Source: Promethearchaeota archaeon
GTDB lineage: Archaea > Asgardarchaeota > Thorarchaeia > Thorarchaeales > Thorarchaeaceae
Length of the DNA stretch: 17,910 nucleotides
Assembly (NCBI GenBank): GCA_014728035.1
Contig: WJMJ01000154.1
Span: forward strand, 1 to 17,910
Direction of reading: 5' to 3'
Below the pieces are notes generated by a model. It did not search any database. It was given only the letters and a program-made list of their open reading frames with translations, and was not told where the DNA came from. Positions within the stretch are counted from its first letter, which is position 1. Each line of letters opens with the position of its first letter. Of this stretch, positions 1 through 17,910 are shown in pieces. A program made the position numbers and the translations under genes.

Positions 1-756
1 AAAGTAATCCTAGATGATCAAGAATATCTCCTAGAAGTAGGAGATAGGATTTTCCTCGAACAGGATGAAATTCCAGAATTCGAGGATGAGGAGGATATAT
101 TCGGTGATCCAATAGAATACATCAAAGAGCATCCTGATGATCAGAGAGTACTTAATGTTATCAAGCAAAATCCAAAATGGGCTTATGAATATGCCGATGA
201 CGTAATCAAGGGCAGATGGCCTGAGGCTGAGGATACAATCAAGCAAAATCCAGAACAGGCTTATGATTATGCTCGTTATGTAGTCAAGGGTAGATGGCCC
301 GAGGCTGAGGATACAATCAAGCAAGATCCAAAATGGGCTTATATGTATGCTCATAATGTGATCAAGGGCAGATGGCCCGAGGTTGAGGACACCATTAAAC
401 AGGATCCAGAATGGGCTTATCGATATGCTCGTGATATGGTCAAGGGCAGATGGCCAGAGGGTGAGGATATAATCAAGCAAGATCCACAATTAGCTTATGA
501 ATATGCTCGTGATGTGATCAAGAGCAGATGGCCTGAGGCAGAGGAAATAATCAAACAGGATCCAGAATGGGCTTATCGATATGCTCGTGATATGATCAAG
601 GGCAGGTGGCCTGAGGCTGAGGATACAATCAAGCAATATCCAAAATGGTCTTATATGTATGCTCGTGACGTAATTAAGGGCAGGTGGCCTGAAGCAGAGG
701 AAACAATCAAGCAAGATCCAAAATGGTGGCAAGAATATGAGGAAGAATTCCTATGA
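1..756 (+). CDS. Tandem-repeat (26-aa helical repeat) hypothetical phage protein, 5'-truncated
   Basis: Frame 1 is open from base 1 to TGA at 754-756, so the track ORF 343..756 is only its distal part. An acidic N-terminal stretch is followed by repeats of IKQDPxWAYxYARDVIKGRWPEAEDT. Confidence 0.85.
   Translation, partial: KVILDDQEYLLEVGDRIFLEQDEIPEFEDEEDIFGDPIEYIKEHPDDQRVLNVIKQNPKWAYEYADDVIKGRWPEAEDTIKQNPEQAYDYARYVVKGRWPEAEDTIKQDPKWAYMYAHNVIKGRWPEVEDTIKQDPEWAYRYARDMVKGRWPEGEDIIKQDPQLAYEYARDVIKSRWPEAEEIIKQDPEWAYRYARDMIKGRWPEAEDTIKQYPKWSYMYARDVIKGRWPEAEETIKQDPKWWQEYEEEFL
160..735 (+). repeat. 78-bp coding tandem repeat, 7 full copies plus a partial copy
   Basis: Units (IKQ codons) begin at 160, 238, 316, 394, 472, 550, 628 and 706, an exact 78-nt period. 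Confidence 0.95.
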
Positions 757-853
757 TCGTAACTATAAAATGGAATGATATCCACCATAATTTATAGAAA
801 TGGAATAATCCGATCAAATATAGGATAGTTCTTTATTCTAAGGAGATAGAGTA

Positions 854-3458: not shown

Positions 3459-5630
3459 ATGGATATTAAAAAAAGAAATGAGATTCTCGCAAATGATTAT
3501 TTAAGTGGGAAAACATTGCAGTATATATCAGATTCATCTGGATTGTCGAAATCTCAATTGAGTAGAATATTTAGAGAATTAGGTGTTAAACGGAAAAAAT
3601 ATGAGTTAGATAAAGATTATTTTGATAGTAATAAAAATAAGACAGCAAGGCAAATAAGTGAAGAGACTGGTATTTCTATTAAAAGAGTTATGCATTTAAA
3701 AAGAATAGCAAGCGGAGCTAAAATATCAAAGGGTAAGACTGATTTTACAGATTGTGATCCAACAGTTGACCCAGGATTAATCAATAATCATGACTGGTTA
3801 TATGAACAATATGTTACGAACAAACTTGGGGCACCAAGCATAGCTAAAATGTTGGGATCTAAATGTTCCACAATATATAAGATGTTTAAGAGATTTGGTA
3901 TTAGTCGTAGAAATATTAGTCAAGCCATGGAAGTTAAAAAGAAGTGGCCAAGTAAGGATTGGCTGGAGGACCATTATAATAATAGTAAATGGTCAGTAGA
4001 GAGATGCTCTGTAGAATTTGGCACAAACTGGGAAGCTATATATGAAGCTTTAAAACATTATAATATCCCACTTAGAGATGCTAGCACACAACATAGAGGC
4101 AATTTGAACGAATTTTATGGCATGAATCACAATGAAGAGACTAAAATCAAATGCGCCAAAATAGGATCCAAATATGGCGCTGAATATTGGACTACCGGCG
4201 ATGTTGAAGAGAAGAAAAGGCTGACATCTGAAATTAGTAAAAAAGTTTGGTCTGATCCACTTAAAAGACATGATCATTCTGTAAGAATAACCGAGTTGTG
4301 TAAACAAGGCAAATGCAATGCCAAGAACATAACATATATTTCATATAATGGTGATATTATTAAAATGAAATCATCATGGGAATTATTGACAGCACAGATT
4401 TTGGATAAATCTGATGTGGTTGTGGATTGGAAATATGAAGATTTATCTATTAAGTACCATGATGGCGATCATATTCGGAACTTTATAGTTGATTTCTGGG
4501 TGAAGTGGAAGGATGGTCTAGAGTCATATATTGAATGTAAAAACCAGCATTTATTAATCAAAGAAGGAGAACAATTAAAAATAAAGACATTACAAGAATA
4601 TTGCGATAGACACGGGTTTGATTTTATTTTAATTGATAGCAAAGAACAAATAAAGAAAATGTCTATGGGCTATAAAGACATGGTACAATGGATTAATAGT
4701 TCCAGATATAAAGTTAAGCGTAAATATCTACAAGAGCCAGTATTATTTGTGAGAATGATGTTTCACGATATAATAAATCACATCTGTCCTTGGAAACCTC
4801 TACAGTATGAAGATGATGAATTGGCCAAAGACATCGATAGATTGAAGAATGAAAACCTTGATGGATATAATCAGAATGATGGTTTGCATTCCACTGCTCC
4901 AAACAGTGGTGGTATGCCTGGCAGAATCATAATGACTCATTTTAATCCACATTTTTGGGATGTGCCACCCAAAAATTCTAGACCACTTCCACATGCTTTT
5001 GATGACAAAAAACTGATTCTTAAATGCCTTAATATATCATATAAGGAAAAGGAATCACTCAGTGTTGAAAGATTGCTTAGAGAGATAAACTTTCATAGCA
5101 AATTTGGTAGGACGTCCCATTTTGCACCAGGATTTGCCCGTAATATTATAAAATTAATGGATGCATCTGGAAAGAGGATATTTGATCCATGTTGCGGATG
5201 GGGAGGTAGATTACTTGGCTCTTGGTTGGAGGAATGCGAATATTCTGGGTGTGACATTAGTCCTTTAACCTTTAATGGACTATTGAATATATCTAATTTT
5301 GTGGGGCATGATTGTGATATATTCAATGAATCATGTCTTGATCATGATTGGCCAGATTCTGATTTGATATTCACATCACCACCGTTTTATGACATAGAAC
5401 AATATATTGGTGGTAATCAGCCATGGATGAGATGTAAATCTAGAAACGAATGGATAGAGACATTTGTTGAGCCGTTCGTAAACAAAATAAATTCGAATTG
5501 CGTACTATATTTAGACCATAAGACTAAGGATGATTATGAATCAATTAGGAAATTCAACAAGATAATAGAAATTAAAAATAGGAGACACGCAAGGAGAAAG
5601 GTTGATAGTGAATTGTTATGTATATATTGA
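3459..5630 (+). CDS. Multi-domain protein: HTH repeats, PD-(D/E)xK (TnsA-like/homing) endonuclease and amino-DNA methyltransferase
   Basis: N-terminal HTH-like repeats (WLYEQYVTNKLGAPSIAKMLG; WLEDHYNNSKWSVERCSVEFG) and a NUMOD3-like FYGMNHNEETKIK. Nuclease-like MKSSWE...WKYE...FIVDFWV...YIECKN. MTase motif I FDPCCGWGGRLLG and motif IV FTSPPFY. Confidence 0.8.
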   Translation: MDIKKRNEILANDYLSGKTLQYISDSSGLSKSQLSRIFRELGVKRKKYELDKDYFDSNKNKTARQISEETGISIKRVMHLKRIASGAKISKGKTDFTDCDPTVDPGLINNHDWLYEQYVTNKLGAPSIAKMLGSKCSTIYKMFKRFGISRRNISQAMEVKKKWPSKDWLEDHYNNSKWSVERCSVEFGTNWEAIYEALKHYNIPLRDASTQHRGNLNEFYGMNHNEETKIKCAKIGSKYGAEYWTTGDVEEKKRLTSEISKKVWSDPLKRHDHSVRITELCKQGKCNAKNITYISYNGDIIKMKSSWELLTAQILDKSDVVVDWKYEDLSIKYHDGDHIRNFIVDFWVKWKDGLESYIECKNQHLLIKEGEQLKIKTLQEYCDRHGFDFILIDSKEQIKKMSMGYKDMVQWINSSRYKVKRKYLQEPVLFVRMMFHDIINHICPWKPLQYEDDELAKDIDRLKNENLDGYNQNDGLHSTAPNSGGMPGRIIMTHFNPHFWDVPPKNSRPLPHAFDDKKLILKCLNISYKEKESLSVERLLREINFHSKFGRTSHFAPGFARNIIKLMDASGKRIFDPCCGWGGRLLGSWLEECEYSGCDISPLTFNGLLNISNFVGHDCDIFNESCLDHDWPDSDLIFTSPPFYDIEQYIGGNQPWMRCKSRNEWIETFVEPFVNKINSNCVLYLDHKTKDDYESIRKFNKIIEIKNRRHARRKVDSELLCIY

Positions 5631-6863: not shown

Positions 6864-6884
6864 CTATACCTAGATGATATATAA
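6864..6884 (+). promoter_or_regulatory. Putative promoter for scaffold/array 1
   Basis: CTATACCTAGATGATATATAA, 18/21 identical to 7161-7181, runs into TATAAT directly before the scaffold. Confidence 0.55.
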
Positions 6885-6948
6885 TTCAGGCCCTCATCCT
6901 CGGGCCTAAGCTCACCCATGATGGTGAGTAATCTCCGGATGGAGACCA
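6885..6948 (+). ncRNA. Structured scaffold (tracrRNA/scoutRNA-like), copy 1
   Basis: 62/64 identical to 9647-9710. Hairpins AGGCCC-[TCATCCTC]-GGGCCT, CTCACC-[CATGAT]-GGTGAG and TCTCC-[GGAT]-GGAGA. Loop 1 is complementary to the repeat 3' end. Confidence 0.75.
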
Positions 6949-6955
6949 CTTTAGT

Positions 6956-7099
6956 ATCGTCTTTGTGCGCGTGTGGAAGGATGATGATGACCGTGGATCG
7001 GTTCCCCCTTCCCGCAATCGTCTTCGTGCGCGTGTGGGAGGATGGCCCCAGCACGTACATAGCACAGGAAGCACTCCAATCGTCTTCGTGGGAGGATGG
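6956..7099 (+). CRISPR. CRISPR mini-array 1 (3 repeats, 2 bounded spacers plus a probable trailing spacer)
   Basis: Repeats at 6956-6984 (ATCGTCTTTGTGCGCGTGTGGAAGGATGA), 7017-7045 (ATCGTCTTCGTGCGCGTGTGGGAGGATGG) and 7079-7099 (8-nt internal deletion). Spacers are 32 and 33 nt. Confidence 0.8.
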
Positions 7100-7160
7100 G
7101 CTGGACCCGACTGCGCGGCCTTCGGCCCCAGTATAGACATACTATCTTTCCTAACGTAAC

Positions 7161-7181
7161 CTATACCAGGATAATATATAA
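7161..7181 (+). promoter_or_regulatory. Putative promoter for the Cas12f-like operon
   Basis: CTATACCAGGATAATATATAA, a near-copy of 6864-6884, followed by an AGGAGG RBS at 7199-7204. Confidence 0.55.
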
Positions 7182-7210
7182 ATCACTTCTCTCACTTTAG
7201 GAGGATCACT

Positions 7211-8602
7211 ATGGCTAAGAAGACAAAAAAGAAGGTTGTTAAGAAAAAGACGGATGACAAAAAAGAGGACAAGCCAAAACGGATTGGTAAAACCCTATCA
7301 TTGAGGGTTGATGTTGATGTTCCATTTTATTGTGAGGCAAATGGCATAGAGGTGCCAGTTGGGAAAACTGAGTATAACGAAATACGCAATGAACTCAGGA
7401 CGATAATTCGGAATGATATCAAGCGGTATAGGTTCGTACTCAGACAAGCTGCCAGTATTCTAGCATTTGCAGCCACAGTGACACAGCACATAGAATTTAA
7501 AGATGATGATATTAGGGTATATGCAACCTCTGAAGAAATGAAAGAAACTCTGCGCACACTATTTGGAAGGGATGGTGCCGCGTGTTTCTATTCGCTTAGA
7601 GAATGGGTGATTGAAAGATTGGGTGGATGGCGTACTGAACATTGGGATCATATGCGCAACGAATTGCAAACCAATTGGTTTGCTAAAGATCCCCAGTTTG
7701 GTGCTAGTCGTGGGTGGCTCATTCTGAATTGTGCACGTATTCCTGCATTGTTCCACAATGCACCGATTAACTTTCTACCTTGTAGCGTGAAAGTTGATGA
7801 TGGCGGTCACCATATTAGTCTTAGCGTACGTCCAAGGGAGCGTTTTGGATTGCGTATTGCATCGACTGATAAGTCTCAATGGTTTTTGTGGAATAGAATT
7901 CTGAATAATGATGGATATCGGATGGGAACGTGCAAACTTTGTATTAACCGTAAACATCAATGGAAGTTTCTGGTTACCTATACTTGTGAGGAAACCAAAT
8001 CTGTTCTGAATCCTAAGCGCACTCTTGAGGTGGCCTTTACTGATGATCCCAAGAAATTCATCCAGTTTGCTATGAGATCTGGCCATAAGACTCTTATTGA
8101 TGACTTGAGAAATAAGCACTTGGATGCCACTGCTGCCATTAGAATCCTGGACAAGTTCAAAGCACAACAGCGTTACCTTGAAGAGGAGCGTGATGCATGT
8201 CGATATGGCAGAGGTGGTTATAATAAAGCATACAAAGCGGTTAACAAACGGAGGGCTAAGTATACAGAGGGAAGAGAAAGAGTATGTGCCAATTGGAATC
8301 ATACCTGGAGTAAGAGAATTATTACTATTGCACAGCAATGGGATTGTGGTAACATTGAAGTATTCAATATGCCGTCTCACAGTGTAAAAAAGAAGAATCT
8401 CGAAAAGCACGGTGCAGCAGCGGCAATTGAAGAATGTGCAATGCAAGAAGAGATTCGATCCAATTTGTTTGGTAGGGAATGGGCTTGGTTTGATTTTGCT
8501 CAGAAGGTGAAATATAAAGCCAGGGATGCAGGATGCAAGGTCAAATTCATCGAGAATGTAGACATAGACCATATTCTAGACATAGGTGCATCTGTATCGT
8601 GA
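7211..8602 (+). CDS. Cas12f/TnpB-like protein, predicted nuclease-dead and C-terminally truncated
   Basis: The C-terminal half follows the Cas12f/TnpB RuvC layout: KWKFLVTYT...KRTLEVAFTDD (RuvC-I position), NWNHTWSKRIITIAQQWDCGNIEVFNM (RuvC-II position), WAWFDFAQKVKYKARDAGCKVKFIE. It stops before the Zn finger and RuvC-III. Flanked by CRISPR arrays. Confidence 0.75.
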   Translation: MAKKTKKKVVKKKTDDKKEDKPKRIGKTLSLRVDVDVPFYCEANGIEVPVGKTEYNEIRNELRTIIRNDIKRYRFVLRQAASILAFAATVTQHIEFKDDDIRVYATSEEMKETLRTLFGRDGAACFYSLREWVIERLGGWRTEHWDHMRNELQTNWFAKDPQFGASRGWLILNCARIPALFHNAPINFLPCSVKVDDGGHHISLSVRPRERFGLRIASTDKSQWFLWNRILNNDGYRMGTCKLCINRKHQWKFLVTYTCEETKSVLNPKRTLEVAFTDDPKKFIQFAMRSGHKTLIDDLRNKHLDATAAIRILDKFKAQQRYLEEERDACRYGRGGYNKAYKAVNKRRAKYTEGRERVCANWNHTWSKRIITIAQQWDCGNIEVFNMPSHSVKKKNLEKHGAAAAIEECAMQEEIRSNLFGREWAWFDFAQKVKYKARDAGCKVKFIENVDIDHILDIGASVS

Positions 8603-8604
8603 TG

Positions 8605-8723
8605 GCGATGTGATGTGAAGCAATACGAGATGTGGTAGAGCGATGGTTCTGTAAGACATAACGTATCGTTGCGTAAATCAACGAATGCAAAGCACATCGG
8701 GTGGTCGTGGGTGGTCCACGGCC
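8605..8723 (+). ncRNA. Putative guide-type ncRNA with 5-nt periodic RYR-NN units and a 3' hairpin
   Basis: Eight consecutive RYR-NN pentamers at 8605-8644. The phase shifts by +1 at 8646 and again at 8687 (41-nt blocks). Hairpin GGTCGTGG-[GTGGT]-CCACGGCC at 8703-8723. Confidence 0.55.
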
Positions 8724-8748
8724 CATTGTGGAAACTGGAGGAAAAACC

Positions 8749-9438
8749 GTGAAGACAATCAGAGTGAAAGCGACGTTTTTGGAGCCTGTGTTGGGCACTG
8801 TGGCTGGAGATCCAGAGATTTATGAACAGTTTATTGCCAGTAAACGGCCTGATGGTGTGGATCCAGAAGAGATTGAGGCAATCCCAACGTTGGAGGAGGA
8901 TTTGGAAAAGGGAGCGACAGTGTTCGCTCGTATAAATGAAACTGGTACACCCATGCTCTGGGATTATCAGATTCGTGGATTCTTCAAAGAGGCATTTAAA
9001 TCCATGATCGATATTACTGGATCTTGTATCGACACAAAGGAGAAGCAGAAGAAATACAGGCTCACCAATTATACGTGCAAAAAGACGGTGGATAATCATA
9101 TTGGTGTCACGCCACGACGAGTTGAACTGCATCTGCCGGAGGGTGGTGAACTTACATTTTGTCAGCGACCGCTTCGGGCTGAAACGATGAGAGGAGAACG
9201 AATCGCTCTCGCTTATAGTGAAGAAGCACCGGCTGGAAGCTGGGTTGAATTTACGATCACATTGATGGACGATAAGCTCGAAGAACCAGTGCTTCAGGCA
9301 TTGATGTATGGGGCACACAAAGGATTCGGACAATGGCGCAATAGCGGTAAGGGGCGATTTGAAGTTGAAATTCTGGATGAAGAAAAAACATCCCCCGATT
9401 GGCTCAACACAAGCAAGATTAAGCGTAAGACAGATTAG
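8749..9438 (+). CDS. Stand-alone RAMP / Cas7-fold RNA-binding protein (229 aa)
   Basis: Likely start is GTG 8749, with GGAGG at 8737-8741. RAMP-like elements: IRVKATFLEPVLG, PMLWDYQIRGFFKEA, thumb QRPLRAETMRGERIALAYSEEAPAGSWVEFTITL, Gly-rich loop YGAHKGFGQWRNSGKGRFEV. Confidence 0.75.
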   Translation: MKTIRVKATFLEPVLGTVAGDPEIYEQFIASKRPDGVDPEEIEAIPTLEEDLEKGATVFARINETGTPMLWDYQIRGFFKEAFKSMIDITGSCIDTKEKQKKYRLTNYTCKKTVDNHIGVTPRRVELHLPEGGELTFCQRPLRAETMRGERIALAYSEEAPAGSWVEFTITLMDDKLEEPVLQALMYGAHKGFGQWRNSGKGRFEVEILDEEKTSPDWLNTSKIKRKTD

Positions 9439-9454
9439 TCCGGAAAGGGCATAG

Positions 9455-9640
9455 ATGCGTTGTGTCAATGAAAATTGTGATCGTGATTCTGATTGTCTGG
9501 GTGCAGTGCTGGTCAACGCGGATGGTGACTTTGCCTGCTGCAAAACTTGTGCGGAAGAATATCGTAAGCAACGAGATCATTTCTTTGCCGTAACAGTGCA
9601 TGATGAAGAACTCACAGCCGCATATTTGCGAGGCGAATAA
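9455..9640 (+). CDS. Small Cys-rich, putative Zn-binding protein (61 aa)
   Basis: CxxxxC...DGDFACCKTC. Fills the gap between the RAMP gene and scaffold copy 2 on the same strand. Confidence 0.65.
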   Translation: MRCVNENCDRDSDCLGAVLVNADGDFACCKTCAEEYRKQRDHFFAVTVHDEELTAAYLRGE

Positions 9641-9646
9641 CGTATT

Positions 9647-9710
9647 TTCAGGCCCTCATCCTCGGGCCTAAGCTCACCCACGACGGTGAGTAATCTCCGG
9701 ATGGAGACCA
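9647..9710 (+). ncRNA. Structured scaffold (tracrRNA/scoutRNA-like), copy 2
   Basis: 62/64 identical to 6885-6948. Both differences (9681, 9684) fall in the loop of hairpin 2. Confidence 0.75.
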
Positions 9711-9725
9711 TACAACGGGTGTAAT

Positions 9726-9991
9726 GTGACGCCCACGTGCGCATGGGAGGATGGGGTGCCACACGGATCCGCACGATTTTGCCGTGCGTGACGCCCACGT
9801 GCGCATGGGAGGATGGTGAAAAGATGCGAGCGGCTGAACATATACGAGCGTGACGCCCACGTGCGCATGGGAGGATGGGAGGATCTCGAAATCCTCGAAA
9901 CTATGTGACGCCCACGTGCGCATGGGAGGATGGCTGTAAAAGGACCAAGAAGGAAATCAGCGCAAGTGACACCCCATGTATGGGAGGATGG
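9726..9991 (+). CRISPR. CRISPR mini-array 2 (5 repeats, 4 bounded spacers plus a probable trailing spacer)
   Basis: GTGACGCCCACGTGCGCATGGGAGGATGG is identical at 9726, 9788, 9850 and 9905, with a degenerate 26-nt copy at 9966-9991. Spacers are 33, 33, 26 and 32 nt. Confidence 0.95.
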
Positions 9992-10075: not shown

Positions 10076-10768
10076 ATGGTCAACACGGCTGAAAAAATCG
10101 ATAAGGTTGAAGCAGAACCAATTGGTGAAATGTCTGATGACGAATTCCAGCAAGTTCTTATTGAGCTTGATGCGATCATTGAAGATATTGTTGACAAGAT
10201 GCTCAGTATGGCAACATATCTAGGACGCATGAGCAAACCACAGATTAAGGAGGTATGTCAACGATACAAAGGAACTATATCTGCGGATCACATCAAACGA
10301 ATCGCATTATTCGGTCGCGGAATGATCAAGGAATATATGGCTAGACCGGAGAAATACATTTATGCCACAGAACTGCAACGATATAGTGATAAAGCTAGAC
10401 AAGATGTGGCAGATCCGGAACGCGTAGTTGAAGTATTGACCATACATGGGCGCAAATCTGAGGTATCAAATAAGAAATTGTGCGAATTGACCCCAGTGCA
10501 GATGATTAATGTGGTGGACCCAATTTATGGTATTCGCACAGTGAAACAACAGGAGAAAGTATTTGTTAGTAATATAAAGAAAGCCTGTAAGAGACAAAAA
10601 AGAACTCCGTCAGACGAAGAAATCAAGTCATTTCTTTATGCATCTGCAGAGCCATCAGAGGATGGTAAATTTATTGTAATTCGAGGGCATGAGGGCGATT
10701 GTGTGCCTGTCATGAAAATTGAAATACCGGCATCTACGATTAAAGATATATTGAGCAGTATTACATAA
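10076..10768 (+). CDS. Hypothetical protein
   Basis: 230-aa ORF with AAGGAG RBS. No family recognised. Confidence 0.75.
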   Translation: MVNTAEKIDKVEAEPIGEMSDDEFQQVLIELDAIIEDIVDKMLSMATYLGRMSKPQIKEVCQRYKGTISADHIKRIALFGRGMIKEYMARPEKYIYATELQRYSDKARQDVADPERVVEVLTIHGRKSEVSNKKLCELTPVQMINVVDPIYGIRTVKQQEKVFVSNIKKACKRQKRTPSDEEIKSFLYASAEPSEDGKFIVIRGHEGDCVPVMKIEIPASTIKDILSSIT

Positions 10769-16939: not shown

Positions 16940-17910
16940 ATGGATAAATTCACAACCCGTGTTCCTTATAATGGATTTGATTGGTTTCGCCCAGAATCAT
17001 TATATGACAAGCTTTTAGTTCATCATAATATATATCCAGTAATAGAAGAAGGTGTTGGTGGTTTTTATTTGCGTCTATCTGCACTACCTTATGTAGCTCT
17101 AAATGTAATTATAGAATCGGATAGTGTATCCCTATCACCCACAACGCTTGTTTTTGATCACGATGATTGGGATATCAATCAATGGGTTGATGCGACTGGG
17201 TTTGGTGAAATAACCATTAGCGATGAATATAATATTCTCGTAGAAACTGTATTTGTTTTTGGGACATCAAGTTCATCATCATCAAGCCAATCAAGTAGTT
17301 CAAGTAGTCTAAGTAGTTCATCATCGTCATCGTCATCGTCATCGAGTCAGTCTAGTTCAAGTAGTTCATCATCATCAAGTAGCCAATCAAGTAGTAGTTC
17401 CAGTAGTCTAAGTAGTTCATCATCATCAAGTAGTCAATCAAGTAGTAGTTCAAGTAGTAGTTCAAGTAGTTTAAGCTCATCGTCATCGAGTCAATCAAGT
17501 AGTAGTTCAAGTAGCTTAAGCTCATCGTCATCGAGCCAATCAAGTAGCTTAAGCTCATCGTCGTCGAGCAAATCATCTAGTAGCTCTAGCTCGTCCTATT
17601 CATCATCGTCATCCAGATCTTCTAGCTCCAGTTACTCATCTAGTAGTTCTAGCTCTTCTAGCTCCAGTTATTCATCTAGTAGTTCTAGCTCGTCCTACTC
17701 GTCATCGTCATCTAGCTCTTCATCCTCCTCTTACTCATCGAGTAGTTCTAGCTCGTCTTACTCAAGCTCCTCATCTAGCTCGTCTAGTTCCAGTTACTCA
17801 TCGAGTAGTTCTAGCTCATCCTACTCAAGCTCCTCGTCTAGCTCGTCTAGCTCCAGTTACTCATCGAGTAGTTCTAGCTCGTCATACTCAAGCTCATCAT
17901 CTAGATCGTC
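16940..17910 (+). CDS. Poly-serine surface/virion-type protein, 3'-truncated (absent from the ORF track)
   Basis: ATG 16940, open to the window end: MDKFTTRVPYNGFDW...FYLRLSALPYVALNVIIESDSVSLSPTTLVFDHDDWDINQWVDATG..., followed by more than 200 codons that are almost all Ser. Confidence 0.85.
   Translation, partial: MDKFTTRVPYNGFDWFRPESLYDKLLVHHNIYPVIEEGVGGFYLRLSALPYVALNVIIESDSVSLSPTTLVFDHDDWDINQWVDATGFGEITISDEYNILVETVFVFGTSSSSSSSQSSSSSSLSSSSSSSSSSSSQSSSSSSSSSSSQSSSSSSSLSSSSSSSSQSSSSSSSSSSSLSSSSSSQSSSSSSSLSSSSSSQSSSLSSSSSSKSSSSSSSSYSSSSSRSSSSSYSSSSSSSSSSSYSSSSSSSSYSSSSSSSSSSSYSSSSSSSSYSSSSSSSSSSSYSSSSSSSSYSSSSSSSSSSSYSSSSSSSSYSSSSSRS
17267..17910 (+). repeat. Low-complexity poly-Ser coding tract
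   Basis: Mixed TCN/AGY codons in one frame, punctuated by Gln/Leu up to about 17570 and by Tyr afterwards. Confidence 0.95.

What the first reader, a model, noticed from the sequence alone, without database searches (positions are those of the whole stretch)
6885..9710. Duplicated 64-nt three-hairpin scaffold whose loop is an anti-repeat, placed 5' of each array
Seen: 6885-6948 and 9647-9710 are 62/64 identical, with both changes in a loop. They end 7 and 15 nt before the first repeat of each array. The loop of hairpin 1 (UCAUCCUC) can pair over 8 nt with GAGGAUGG, the 3' end of the repeats (one G-U), and perfectly with GAGGAUGA. That segment is exactly what the two otherwise divergent repeat families conserve. 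Inference: a tracr/scout-like RNA co-transcribed in the leader position that forms a loop-repeat pseudoknot next to the spacer, like a TnpB omegaRNA split into scaffold plus repeat. This could be a natural single-guide arrangement and an omegaRNA-to-CRISPR intermediate.
Basis: partly seen in the sequence, partly recalled or inferred. Interest (0 to 1): 0.88.

Follow-up and report, generated by a model that had tools for sequence, protein, structure and literature searches.

The report
Guide-RNA scaffold of phage dead Cas12f
The duplicated 64-base element is very probably the folded front part of the guide RNAs of a phage-borne, non-cutting miniature Cas12f protein, and its first hairpin loop base-pairs with the end of each CRISPR repeat next to the spacer, as in all Cas12/TnpB guide RNAs.

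Summary
6885-6948 and 9647-9710 are 62/64 identical, and each folds into three hairpins and precedes a mini-array. The same bin holds four more copies on contigs C70 and C74, each heading its own mini-array.

The 463-aa ORF between the arrays (7211-8602) belongs to a family of about 190 short Cas12f-like proteins. They lack the RuvC-I and RuvC-II catalytic residues, the Zn finger and RuvC-III.

Eight lineages of this family (25-37% protein identity) carry the same three-hairpin module on the gene's strand. 14 of its 16 stem pairs show compensatory changes.

In all ten scaffold/repeat combinations examined, the hairpin-1 loop is Watson-Crick complementary to the last 5-7 nt of the cognate repeat. 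The sequences differ in almost every lineage. This is the guide-proximal pseudoknot known from TnpB omegaRNA and Cas12 guide RNAs.

Its evolutionary direction is not shown; a Cas12f-to-single-guide re-fusion is at least as likely.

Transcription, protein binding and targets are untested. No spacer match was found.

This scan noted similar phage dead-Cas12f scaffolds before on other DNA (e1-5348589, e1-5481667). A 2026 paper mentions structured RNAs upstream of arrays next to dCas12f.

Verdict: a new variant of a known kind.

The parts
6877..6885 (+). ATATATAAT motif, a probable phage promoter -10-like element that ends at base 1 of scaffold copy 1
   Evidence: The window has 4 matches to ATATATAAW, all on the + strand and all intergenic (5686, 6877, 7174, 10037), against 1.3 expected. 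The motif is about 7-fold enriched on the phage contigs versus the whole bin and directly precedes the scaffolds on C70. A sigma-70 scan finds no canonical promoter here.
6885..6948 (+). Scaffold copy 1: hairpin 1 at 6888-6907 (loop 6894-6901, TCATCCTC, the pseudoknot strand), hairpin 2 at 6910-6929, hairpin 3 at 6932-6945
   Evidence: Covariance model R1 scores it 55.4 bits, E 2.5e-11.
6956..7099 (+). Mini-array 1, repeat family 1: repeats at 6956-6984, 7017-7045 and 7079-7099 (the last shortened by an internal deletion), each ending in (A/G)AGGATG(A/G)
   Evidence: This repeat also folds on itself (CGUCUUC with GAGGAUG, -11.3 kcal/mol). Repeat 1 carries a compensatory C-G to U-A change in that stem.
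7211..8602 (+). 463-aa Cas12f/TnpB-like protein that is RuvC-dead and ends before the Zn finger and RuvC-III (dCas12f-like)
   Evidence: PADLOC Cas12u3 3.6e-19 and Cas12f 9e-19. NCBIfam guided_TnpB 2e-6. 189 relatives of 370-470 aa. The family profile hits solved Cas12f 9nzq at 1.4e-23, AsCas12f at about 1e-18 and 'nuclease-deactivated Cas12f' 9n9c at 1.6e-13. In those alignments the RuvC-I Asp aligns to Ala and the RuvC-II Glu to Phe.
8749..9438 (+). 229-aa stand-alone RAMP/Cas7-like protein; not a conserved member of the system
   Evidence: More than 2100 homologs in phage-like contigs without dCas12f neighbours. Weak Cas7/Csm4 G-rich-loop hits. The genes next to dCas12f homologs are not its relatives.
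9455..9640 (+). 61-aa Cys-rich ORF whose stop codon lies 6 nt before scaffold copy 2
   Evidence: weak TRASH-like hit only.
9647..9710 (+). Scaffold copy 2: hairpin 1 at 9650-9669 (loop 9656-9663), hairpin 2 at 9672-9691, hairpin 3 at 9694-9707. It has no promoter motif of its own and is probably read through from the operon.
   Evidence: R1 scores it 56.9 bits, E 1.1e-11.
9711..9725 (+). Linker TACAACGGGTGTAAT, conserved in 5 of the 6 copies in the genome
9726..9991 (+). Mini-array 2, repeat family 2: repeats at 9726-9754, 9788-9816, 9850-9878, 9905-9933 and 9966-9991 (26 nt), all ending in GGGAGGATGG
10076..10768 (+). 230-aa protein: the conserved ~210-aa neighbour of dCas12f homologs, function unknown
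   Evidence: BLASTP 1e-15 to 1e-36 to the gene that follows the dCas12f homolog in L011, L014, L017 and L021 (alignment A5). AF2 pLDDT is 77.6 and no fold match was found.

Best explanation
**What it is.** The 64-nt element is the 5' scaffold module of the guide RNAs of a phage-encoded, nuclease-dead, C-terminally short Cas12f-family protein (7211-8602).

**How it probably works.**
- It is transcribed on the + strand together with the mini-array that follows. The transcript comes either from an ATATATAAT-type phage promoter abutting it (copy 1 and most other copies) or by read-through from the operon (copy 2).
- It folds into three hairpins joined by A-rich linkers.
- The loop of hairpin 1, from about its second nucleotide, pairs with the last 5-8 nt of a repeat directly 5' of the spacer. 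This gives an H-type pseudoknot stacked on hairpin 1. It is the equivalent of the guide-proximal pseudoknot of TnpB omegaRNA and Cas12 guide RNAs.
- For the first repeat this yields a cis, omegaRNA-like single guide. For later repeats the scaffold must act in trans, like a tracrRNA, or after processing.
- The resulting RNP would bind DNA that matches the spacer without cutting it, giving transcriptional interference or regulation.

**Shown versus inferred.** Shown here: the conserved structure, the strand, the association with the protein family, and loop-repeat covariation. Inferred: transcription, RNP formation, cis versus trans use, DNA binding and the biological targets.
For: 1. Six near-identical copies each head a mini-array. 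All four variable sites avoid the stems and the hairpin-1 loop.
2. The neighbouring protein belongs to a Cas12f-derived family that lacks the catalytic residues and RuvC-III.
3. The same architecture occurs next to homologs of only 25-37% identity in L011, L012, L013, L014, L017/L018, L022 and L023. It runs hairpin 1, AA/AGA/AAA, hairpin 2, AA, hairpin 3, repeats.
4. RNAalifold recovers all three hairpins, with 14 of 16 pairs compensatory.
5. A covariance model built from 10 sequences finds 28 copies. In every locus that holds the gene they lie on its strand. Nine hits at six distinct places were not used to build the model (L012:809, L014:4801, L017:4350/6062/6871, L023:6453/7479). It finds none in loci that lack a family member (L009, L010, L020).
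6. On that alignment 90.5% of cells are paired against 62% in shuffles. The covariation score is 0.723 against 0.235 (0 of 500 shuffles reach it), and slid controls reach at most 0.27. Stem cells show 29 G.U against 4 A.C.
7. Pseudoknot pairing:
   - window CAUCCUC/GAGGAUG
   - L012 CUCUCA/UGAGAG
   - L013 CUUCC/GGAAG
   - L017 CUCUAG/CUAGAG
   - L023 CUGUAG/CUACAG
   - L014a CUGUGC/GCACAG
   - L014b CUGUGG/CCACAG
   - L011 CUUGC/GCAAG
   - L022 CCCCGUU/AACGGGG

   Pair 1 is an invariant C-G. Pairs 2-6 each show 3-4 Watson-Crick types with no mismatch in ten lineages.
8. 37 complementary sites of at least 6 nt lie downstream of scaffolds, against 5.7 expected from locus background. The cognate versus non-cognate matrix gives 2.5 against 0.38 sites. 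Loops of hairpins 2 and 3 give 3 hits in two of the ten combinations and none in the other eight.
9. [quoted passage not shown]
Against: - The 5' end, processing and even transcription are therefore inferred.
- The pairing is only 5-8 bp. No long repeat:anti-repeat duplex was found, so trans association would rest largely on the protein.
- Family-1 repeats can sequester the same GAGGAUG tail in an internal hairpin. That competes with the pseudoknot and could mean these repeats do not need the scaffold.
- Many repeats are internally deleted and spacer lengths vary from 17 to 35 nt, so parts of the arrays may be decaying.
- No target was found for any spacer.
- The alignment used for the stem counts was fitted to the model's structure (caveat).
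- The covariance model found no scaffold in L016 or L021, although both carry a family member.
Confidence: 0.75

Rival explanations
1. The element is a conserved CRISPR leader that acts as DNA. It would carry a promoter and sites for spacer integration or for a DNA-binding protein. The loop/repeat complementarity would then be an inverted partial repeat recognised as double-stranded DNA.
For: It sits in the leader position and abuts a promoter-like motif. It is duplicated together with the arrays as a cassette.
Against: The stems keep pairing through compensatory changes while their sequence is replaced between lineages, and G.U far exceeds A.C. That pattern is expected of RNA, not of a DNA site. 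No cas1 or cas2 lies in the window or the related loci. The only Cas1 of the bin is on C104, and the bin's other arrays have unrelated repeats. The complementarity always sits in the loop of hairpin 1 and at the last nucleotides of the repeat, which is the geometry of an RNA pseudoknot.
Confidence: 0.06
2. The element is a 5' RNA module that stabilises or processes the pre-crRNA, or regulates it as an anti-repeat switch. It would protect the 5' end, or mask or unmask the first repeat. It would not be part of the effector RNP.
For: Three stable 5' hairpins would protect a transcript. The loop can pair with the repeat tail, and family-1 repeats show an alternative internal pairing of the same tail. 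L023 shows an alternative long-range fold.
Against: A stabiliser would not need its loop to covary with the repeat end in ten scaffold/repeat combinations. The position of the pairing, directly 5' of the guide, and its stacking on a 5' stem match the structural core of every solved TnpB/Cas12 guide RNA. The module occurs only with this protein family in the loci searched.
Confidence: 0.12
3. The mini-arrays are Cas-less phage arrays that borrow a host class 1 system (type I-E-like 29 + 32 nt geometry). The scaffold would be unrelated to the dead Cas12f.
For: The repeats are 29 nt with 32-33-nt spacers, a small stem, and a 7-8-nt tail that resembles a class 1 5' handle. Five of the six arrays are not next to the dCas12f gene. 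A RAMP gene lies in the window.
Against: No Cas6e was found in the bin, and the bin's own arrays have unrelated repeats. In seven other lineages, quite different repeats (21-39 nt, some reduced to an 8-nt motif in L017) co-occur with the same scaffold and the same protein family. The RAMP is not a conserved neighbour.
Confidence: 0.05

Closest known systems
Guide-proximal pseudoknot of TnpB omegaRNA and of Cas12f tracrRNA:crRNA (ISDra2 TnpB, Nakagawa et al. 2023, PMC10097598)
   Same: Nucleotides just 5' of the guide pair with a segment near the 5' end of the scaffold, and the helix stacks on stem 1. The protein is of the same lineage: the profile hits Cas12f structures at 1e-23 to 1e-18.
   Different: The partner here is the loop of a short 5' hairpin within a module of only about 58 nt. 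The pairing is 5-8 bp. No long repeat:anti-repeat duplex was found. One scaffold is followed by several repeats. The protein is RuvC-dead and truncated.
dCas12f systems of Bacteroidota (Hoffmann et al., Nature 2026, PMC13472631; structure preprint 10.1101/2025.06.10.658880)
   Same: Both are C-terminally truncated, nuclease-dead Cas12f homologs. That paper also mentions a cluster of dCas12f near CRISPR arrays, with putative guide RNAs found by covariance upstream of the arrays. The single guides there have four paired regions and a 3' guide.
   Different: No sigma-E gene lies here: Pfam finds no sigma domain in the neighbours. The setting is a phage genome. The scaffolds are dispersed at six mini-arrays. 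A different conserved ~210-aa partner of unknown fold is present. Sequence-level homology of the RNAs could not be tested, and 9n9c is a weaker protein match (1.6e-13) than active Cas12f.
TldR, TnpB-like nuclease-dead repressors (Wiegand et al., 10.1101/2023.11.30.569447; 10.64898/2026.09.22.753285)
   Same: Both are RuvC-dead, shortened TnpB-family proteins. Some TldRs are phage-encoded. Their guide RNAs have a pseudoknot and a 3' guide, and they act by binding DNA.
   Different: TldRs derive from TnpB directly and use one fixed single guide encoded next to the gene. They have no repeat-spacer arrays.
TranC transposon-CRISPR intermediates, and the 'tracrRNA + half repeat re-fusion / omegaRNA array' scenario (Jin et al., Cell 2025, cited through PMC13565253; Altae-Tran et al. 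2023, PMC10691335)
   Same: The scaffold and the repeat behave as two halves of an omegaRNA-like guide. Scaffold-plus-repeat units are duplicated as cassettes. In L017 some repeated units include hairpin 3.
   Different: TranC proteins are active nucleases at the TnpB-to-Cas12 transition. Here the protein is a dead derivative, and the direction of evolution is unknown.

Membership tests
Type V (TnpB/Cas12f-lineage) guide-RNA scaffold | Association with a TnpB/Cas12f-family protein | tested here: met
   The 463-aa ORF hits Cas12u3/Cas12f models. The family profile hits solved Cas12f structures at 1.4e-23. The scaffold was found beside homologs in 8 lineages.
Type V (TnpB/Cas12f-lineage) guide-RNA scaffold | Scaffold/repeat lies 5' of the guide on the transcribed strand | tested here: met
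   The conserved 3' end of the repeat abuts the variable spacer. In every locus that holds the gene, the scaffolds lie on its strand. G.U 29 against A.C 4.
Type V (TnpB/Cas12f-lineage) guide-RNA scaffold | Pseudoknot between guide-proximal nucleotides and a 5' segment of the scaffold | tested here: met
   Loop/tail complementarity of 5-7 Watson-Crick pairs in ten scaffold/repeat combinations, with 3-4 pair types per position and no mismatch. 37 sites against 5.7 expected. This rests on covariation only, with no structure probing.
Type V (TnpB/Cas12f-lineage) guide-RNA scaffold | RNA is expressed and bound by the protein | not testable with these tools
No RNA-protein modelling tool was available.
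tracrRNA (separate trans-acting RNA with an extended anti-repeat) | Extended anti-repeat duplex with the repeat (about 10 bp or more) | tested here: not met
   Only 5-8 nt of complementarity. MFE folds suggest an extra linker-repeat pairing in L012 only.
tracrRNA (separate trans-acting RNA with an extended anti-repeat) | Own transcription unit, separate from the array | tested here: inconclusive
   The scaffold is contiguous with the array, with a promoter-like motif upstream and no terminator-like site between them. Transcript ends are unknown.
omegaRNA / natural single guide RNA | One scaffold joined to one guide | tested here: not met
   In the window each scaffold is followed by 3 or 5 repeat-spacer units. 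Single-unit forms do exist in relatives (L012:809-871, L022:4300-4420).
CRISPR leader acting as DNA for adaptation | Adjacent adaptation genes, and conservation without RNA-type covariation | tested here: not met
   No cas1/cas2 in the window or the related loci. The only Cas1 of the bin is on C104, and the bin's other arrays have unrelated repeats. Stems covary.
dCas12f-sigma-E system (Hoffmann 2026) | Operonic rpoE (sigma-E) partner | tested here: not met
   No sigma domain in the neighbouring ORFs. The conserved partner has no detectable sigma fold (the fold searches are weak evidence).
dCas12f-sigma-E system (Hoffmann 2026) | C-terminally truncated, RuvC-dead Cas12f homolog | tested here: met
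   Alignment A1 and its PDB alignments.

The most novel reading that the evidence does not exclude
This could be a distinct, phage-specific type V-like system with four features:
- a dead, truncated Cas12f;
- a conserved ~210-aa partner of unknown fold;
- a minimal 58-64-nt scaffold embedded in the array leader, which clamps repeat tails only through a loop pseudoknot and serves many dispersed mini-arrays in trans;
- arrays placed in front of phage genes, each behind its own phage promoter, so that guide production is wired into the phage transcription programme.

Its role would be to silence competitors or host functions, or to time the phage's own genes.
Probability: 0.25. Interest if true: 0.8.

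Novelty: new variant of a known kind. Interest (0 to 1): 0.62.

Why it matters
- It gives a compact, natural example of a split omegaRNA-like guide. A roughly 60-nt scaffold is held to a repeat-spacer unit only by a short loop pseudoknot, and eight covarying lineages define the rules of that pairing.
- That is directly usable for testing how little RNA a Cas12f-type protein needs, and how tracrRNA/crRNA and single guides interconvert.
- It also defines a family of about 190 phage-borne dead Cas12f proteins, often with a conserved unknown partner. Their targets and role in phage biology are open.

Tried and rejected
- **Rfam:** no match at gathering thresholds.
- **An 18-mer of hairpin 1 in IMG/VR:** one hit (L001) that is a chance match inside a coding region.
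- **Direct searches with the 463-aa protein:** IMG/VR, the phage collection and the word-indexed protein database returned only the protein itself. Only the full HMMER scan found the family.
- **Profile search of 400 genomes of the phylum:** only one weak partial hit.
- **P0147 look-up:** its contig had no DNA on file.
- **The RAMP as partner:** I first suspected it, then rejected it. Its closest homologs lie in phage contigs without dCas12f, and the genes beside dCas12f homologs are unrelated to it.
- **Naive three-hairpin finder:** too unspecific. It was replaced by the covariance model.
- **Sigma-70 promoter scan:** nothing upstream of the scaffolds.
- **Spacer targets:**
  - Only chance-level 12-17-nt matches in the bin.
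  - No match for the arrays of the window and C70 in 50,697 phage records. The C74 array was not searched there.
  - The host bin's arrays do not match the phage contigs.
- **Fold of the ~210-aa partner:** no match. Foldseek's best E was 0.5, and VIA's best Z was 4.9 on a single long helix. The profile against PDB gave nothing below E 0.06.
- I redid it from coordinates.
- **Shine-Dalgarno idea:** GGAGGAUG looks like a Shine-Dalgarno sequence plus AUG, and the loop looks like an anti-SD. I rejected this because the tails in the other lineages (UGAGAG, CUAGAG, CUACAG, CACAG, GGAAG, GCAAG) are not SD-like.


Full report
**1. The observation**

The two 64-nt stretches are 62/64 identical. The two differences lie in the loop of hairpin 2. 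Each copy folds on the + strand into three hairpins with MFE -28.3 and -28.6 kcal/mol and z about -3.3.

The copies end 7 and 15 nt before the first repeat of mini-arrays at 6956-7099 and 9726-9991. The hairpin-1 loop UCAUCCUC is complementary to the repeat end GAGGAUG(G/A). The two repeat families share the last 11 nt (TGGGAGGATGG) but only 6 of their first 18 nt.

The window is a whole contig (C131) of a 4.3-Mb bin. That bin holds four further copies at 97-100% identity, at C70:19353, C70:19910, C70:57653 and C74:9583. Every copy is followed by its own mini-array of the same repeat type.

Among the six copies only positions 1, 35, 38 and 63 vary. All four are unpaired and lie outside the hairpin-1 loop. 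The repeats, by contrast, differ by 2-5 nt or carry internal deletions.

**2. Surroundings**

The contig is from a phage: it encodes a major head protein (phrog_138, 1.6e-80).

Four of the six scaffolds directly abut the motif ATATATAAT. In C70c the motif lies 23 nt upstream. In the window this motif occurs four times, always on the + strand in intergenic DNA (5686, 6877, 7174, 10037). It is about 7-fold enriched on the phage contigs, so I read it as a phage promoter element.

Copy 2 has no such motif. It starts 6 nt after the stop codon of a 61-aa ORF, so it is probably read through from the operon. No terminator-like site separates scaffold and array.

**3. The protein**

The ORF at 7211-8602 (463 aa) matches Cas12u3/Cas12f models at 3.6e-19 and the TnpB subfamily model. 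A full HMMER scan finds 189 representatives of 370-470 aa. In an alignment of 30 of them, all end right after the RuvC-II segment.

The family profile hits solved Cas12f structures:
- 9nzq at 1.4e-23
- AsCas12f at about 1e-18
- 'nuclease-deactivated Cas12f' 9n9c at 1.6e-13

In those alignments the RuvC-I Asp corresponds to Ala and the RuvC-II Glu to Phe. The profile ends before the Zn finger and RuvC-III. This is a naturally dead, truncated Cas12f relative.

**4. Neighbouring genes**

The 229-aa RAMP/Cas7-like ORF (8749-9438) is not part of the conserved system. Its more than 2100 homologs sit in other phage contexts. The genes beside dCas12f homologs are unrelated to it.

The conserved neighbour is instead a ~210-aa protein. 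It is the window ORF at 10076-10768, and it is homologous (1e-15 to 1e-36) to the gene that follows the dCas12f homolog in L011, L014, L017 and L021. Its fold was not identified.

In the window the RAMP gene, the 61-aa ORF and array 2 lie between the dCas12f gene and this partner.

**5. The scaffold is a conserved RNA**

Contigs that carry homologs of only 25-37% identity show the same architecture on the gene's strand:
- hairpin 1: 5-6 bp stem, 5-9-nt loop
- linker AA, AGA or AAA
- hairpin 2: 6-9 bp stem
- linker AA
- hairpin 3: 5-6 bp stem, mostly a GGAN-type loop
- then the repeats

RNAalifold on ten sequences predicts all three hairpins, and 14 of 16 pairs show compensatory changes.

A covariance model built from those ten finds 28 copies in 126 kb:
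- In every locus that holds the gene, the hits lie on the gene's strand.
- Hits the model was not built from lie at six distinct places: L012:809-871, L014:4801, L017:4350/6062/6871 and L023:6453/7479. Some are mirrored in the twin loci L015 and L018.
- There are no hits in the two RAMP loci (L009, L010) or in L020. There are also none in L016 and L021, although both carry a family member.

On the resulting alignment 90.5% of cells are paired against 62% after shuffling. The covariation score is 0.723 against 0.235 (0 of 500 shuffles reach it), and sliding the partners drops it to 0.27 or less. The caveat is that this alignment was fitted to the model's structure.

**6. The loop-repeat pairing covaries**

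In each lineage the hairpin-1 loop, usually from its second nucleotide, is Watson-Crick complementary to the last nucleotides of the cognate repeat. The pairing ends 0-1 nt before the spacer.

| Lineage | Loop | Repeat end |
|---|---|---|
| window | CAUCCUC | GAGGAUG |
| L012 | CUCUCA | UGAGAG |
| L013 | CUUCC | GGAAG |
| L017 | CUCUAG | CUAGAG |
| L023 | CUGUAG | CUACAG |
| L011 | CUUGC | GCAAG |
| L022 | CCCCGUU | AACGGGG |
| L014, scaffold a | CUGUGC | GCACAG |
| L014, scaffold b | CUGUGG | CCACAG |

The two L014 scaffolds sit in one locus, each with its own repeat type.

Pair 1 is always C-G. Pairs 2-6 each show 3-4 different Watson-Crick types, with no mismatch in ten scaffold/repeat combinations.

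Downstream of scaffolds there are 37 complementary sites of at least 6 nt, against 5.7 expected from the rest of the same loci. Cognate loop/array combinations give 2.5 sites per 300 nt against 0.38 for non-cognate ones. Loops of hairpins 2 and 3 give 3 hits in two of the ten combinations and none in the other eight.

The geometry is that of a classical H-type pseudoknot: one unpaired loop nucleotide, a 6-7-bp second helix, and direct continuation into the 3' arm of hairpin 1. This last point rests on general RNA structural knowledge.

**7. Mechanism**

In the ISDra2 TnpB-omegaRNA structure, nt -5 to -3 next to the guide pair with nt -103 to -105 near the 5' end. [quoted passage not shown] The pairing found here is its counterpart.

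I therefore read the element as the 5' half of a split omegaRNA-like guide. The scaffold supplies hairpins 1-3. Each repeat supplies a small hairpin and the pseudoknot strand. The spacer is the 3' guide.

The first unit can form in cis. With 3-5 repeats per scaffold, and about 21 repeat ends for 6 scaffolds in this phage, the others need the scaffold in trans or need processing. Neither is shown.

Because the protein lacks a nuclease site, the RNP should bind DNA rather than cut it. This has been demonstrated for Cas12m, Cas12c, TldR and dCas12f (PMC12669027, PMC13472631, 10.1101/2023.11.30.569447).

**8. Open points and contrary signs**

- No expression data could be obtained.
- No spacer has a match beyond chance in the bin. 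The arrays of the window and C70 have no match among 50,697 phage genomes; the C74 array was not searched there.
- Spacers average 53% G+C against 39.5% for the bin. The target is probably not this bin's chromosome.
- Family-1 repeats fold into their own hairpin, in which CGUCUUC pairs with the same GAGGAUG tail (-11.3 kcal/mol). Repeat 1 carries a compensatory C-G to U-A change, and the shortened third repeat keeps the stem. These repeats may therefore be partly scaffold-independent, or the two pairings may compete.
- Several repeats carry internal deletions that always spare the small stem and the tail. This points to constraint on the 3' part, but also to decay of the arrays.

**9. Rival readings**

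- **DNA-level leader.** Contradicted by RNA-type covariation and by the absence of adaptation genes. The only Cas1 is on C104, and the bin's other arrays have unrelated repeats.
- **A pure stabiliser or switch.** This does not explain why the loop tracks the repeat tail in the exact place where type V guide RNAs form their core pseudoknot.
- **Borrowing of a host type I-E system.** Suggested by the 29 + 32 nt geometry. Contradicted by the absence of Cas6e and by the co-occurrence of the same scaffold and protein with quite different repeats in seven other lineages.

**10. Comparison and novelty**

The kind is known: type V guide-RNA scaffolds with a guide-proximal pseudoknot, and truncated dead Cas12f/TnpB relatives.

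Hoffmann et al. (PMC13472631) mention a cluster of dCas12f near CRISPR arrays, with covarying putative guide RNAs upstream of the arrays. Altae-Tran et al. (PMC10691335) proposed that dead Cas12f derivatives fused the tracrRNA to a half repeat and then duplicated the unit. Jin et al. 2025 (via PMC13565253) described the opposite split in TranC systems.

Earlier notes of this scan report similar scaffolds of phage dead Cas12f on other DNA (e1-5348589, e1-5481667). I used them only as leads.

As far as I could search, the following are not described:
- the minimal 58-64-nt three-hairpin module embedded as the array leader;
- its attachment to the repeat by the loop pseudoknot alone;
- its dispersal at six promoter-linked mini-arrays across a phage genome;
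- the conserved ~210-aa partner.

I therefore rate it a new variant of a known kind. The reverse direction is at least as likely.

Noticed in passing
window 8749-9438 and 8605-8723; L009:2578-3038; L010:6687-6990: The 229-aa ORF belongs to a family of more than 2100 stand-alone RAMP/Cas7-like phage proteins of about 200 aa. The family profile hits a solved 200-aa Cas7 (8yhd/8z4j group) at E 2e-4. In two other phage contigs the homolog is followed by short periodic GCAAAGGC-type repeats with 36-nt spacing. In the window a 5-nt periodic tract lies just upstream. This may be a separate RAMP-plus-periodic-RNA system.
   Followed up: partly
window 10076-10768: This ~210-aa protein is the conserved neighbour of dCas12f homologs in five lineages. 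It models as a helical N-terminal half plus a small beta domain (AF2 pLDDT 77.6). It has no detectable fold or family match.
   Followed up: partly
window 6956-7099: Family-1 repeats form a 7-bp hairpin (CGUCUUC/GAGGAUG) that sequesters the pseudoknot strand. Repeat 1 carries a compensatory change in that stem, and the internally deleted third repeat keeps it. This may be a scaffold-independent repeat variant or a competing fold.
   Followed up: partly
L017:4458-4495, 7011-7048, 7476-7513: In the L017 lineage some repeated units include hairpin 3 plus the repeat, while others are reduced to the 8-nt tail GCTAGAGG at irregular 20-45-nt spacing. The boundary between scaffold and repeat is therefore fluid.
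   Followed up: no
L012:809-871 and L022:4300-4440: Solo scaffold units sit directly upstream of the dCas12f gene itself. Their presumed guide overlaps that gene's ribosome-binding region, which hints at autoregulation or may simply reflect placement in the 5' UTR.
   Followed up: no
G000 C104:413-1270; C36, C83, C76: The bin carries a Cas1 gene and CRISPR arrays with repeats unrelated to the phage mini-arrays. None of these arrays matches the phage contigs, so the host link of the phage is unproven.
   Followed up: partly
window 3459-5630: A 723-aa ORF combines HTH motifs with a TnsA-like endonuclease N-terminal domain (Pfam 7.8e-7), directly after the major head protein gene.
   Followed up: no
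window 77-804 and 17260-17910: A 78-nt tandem repeat (7 copies) lies inside the 5'-open ORF. At the 3' end of the contig a 27/36-nt periodic repeat lies in a Ser/acidic-rich ORF.
   Followed up: no
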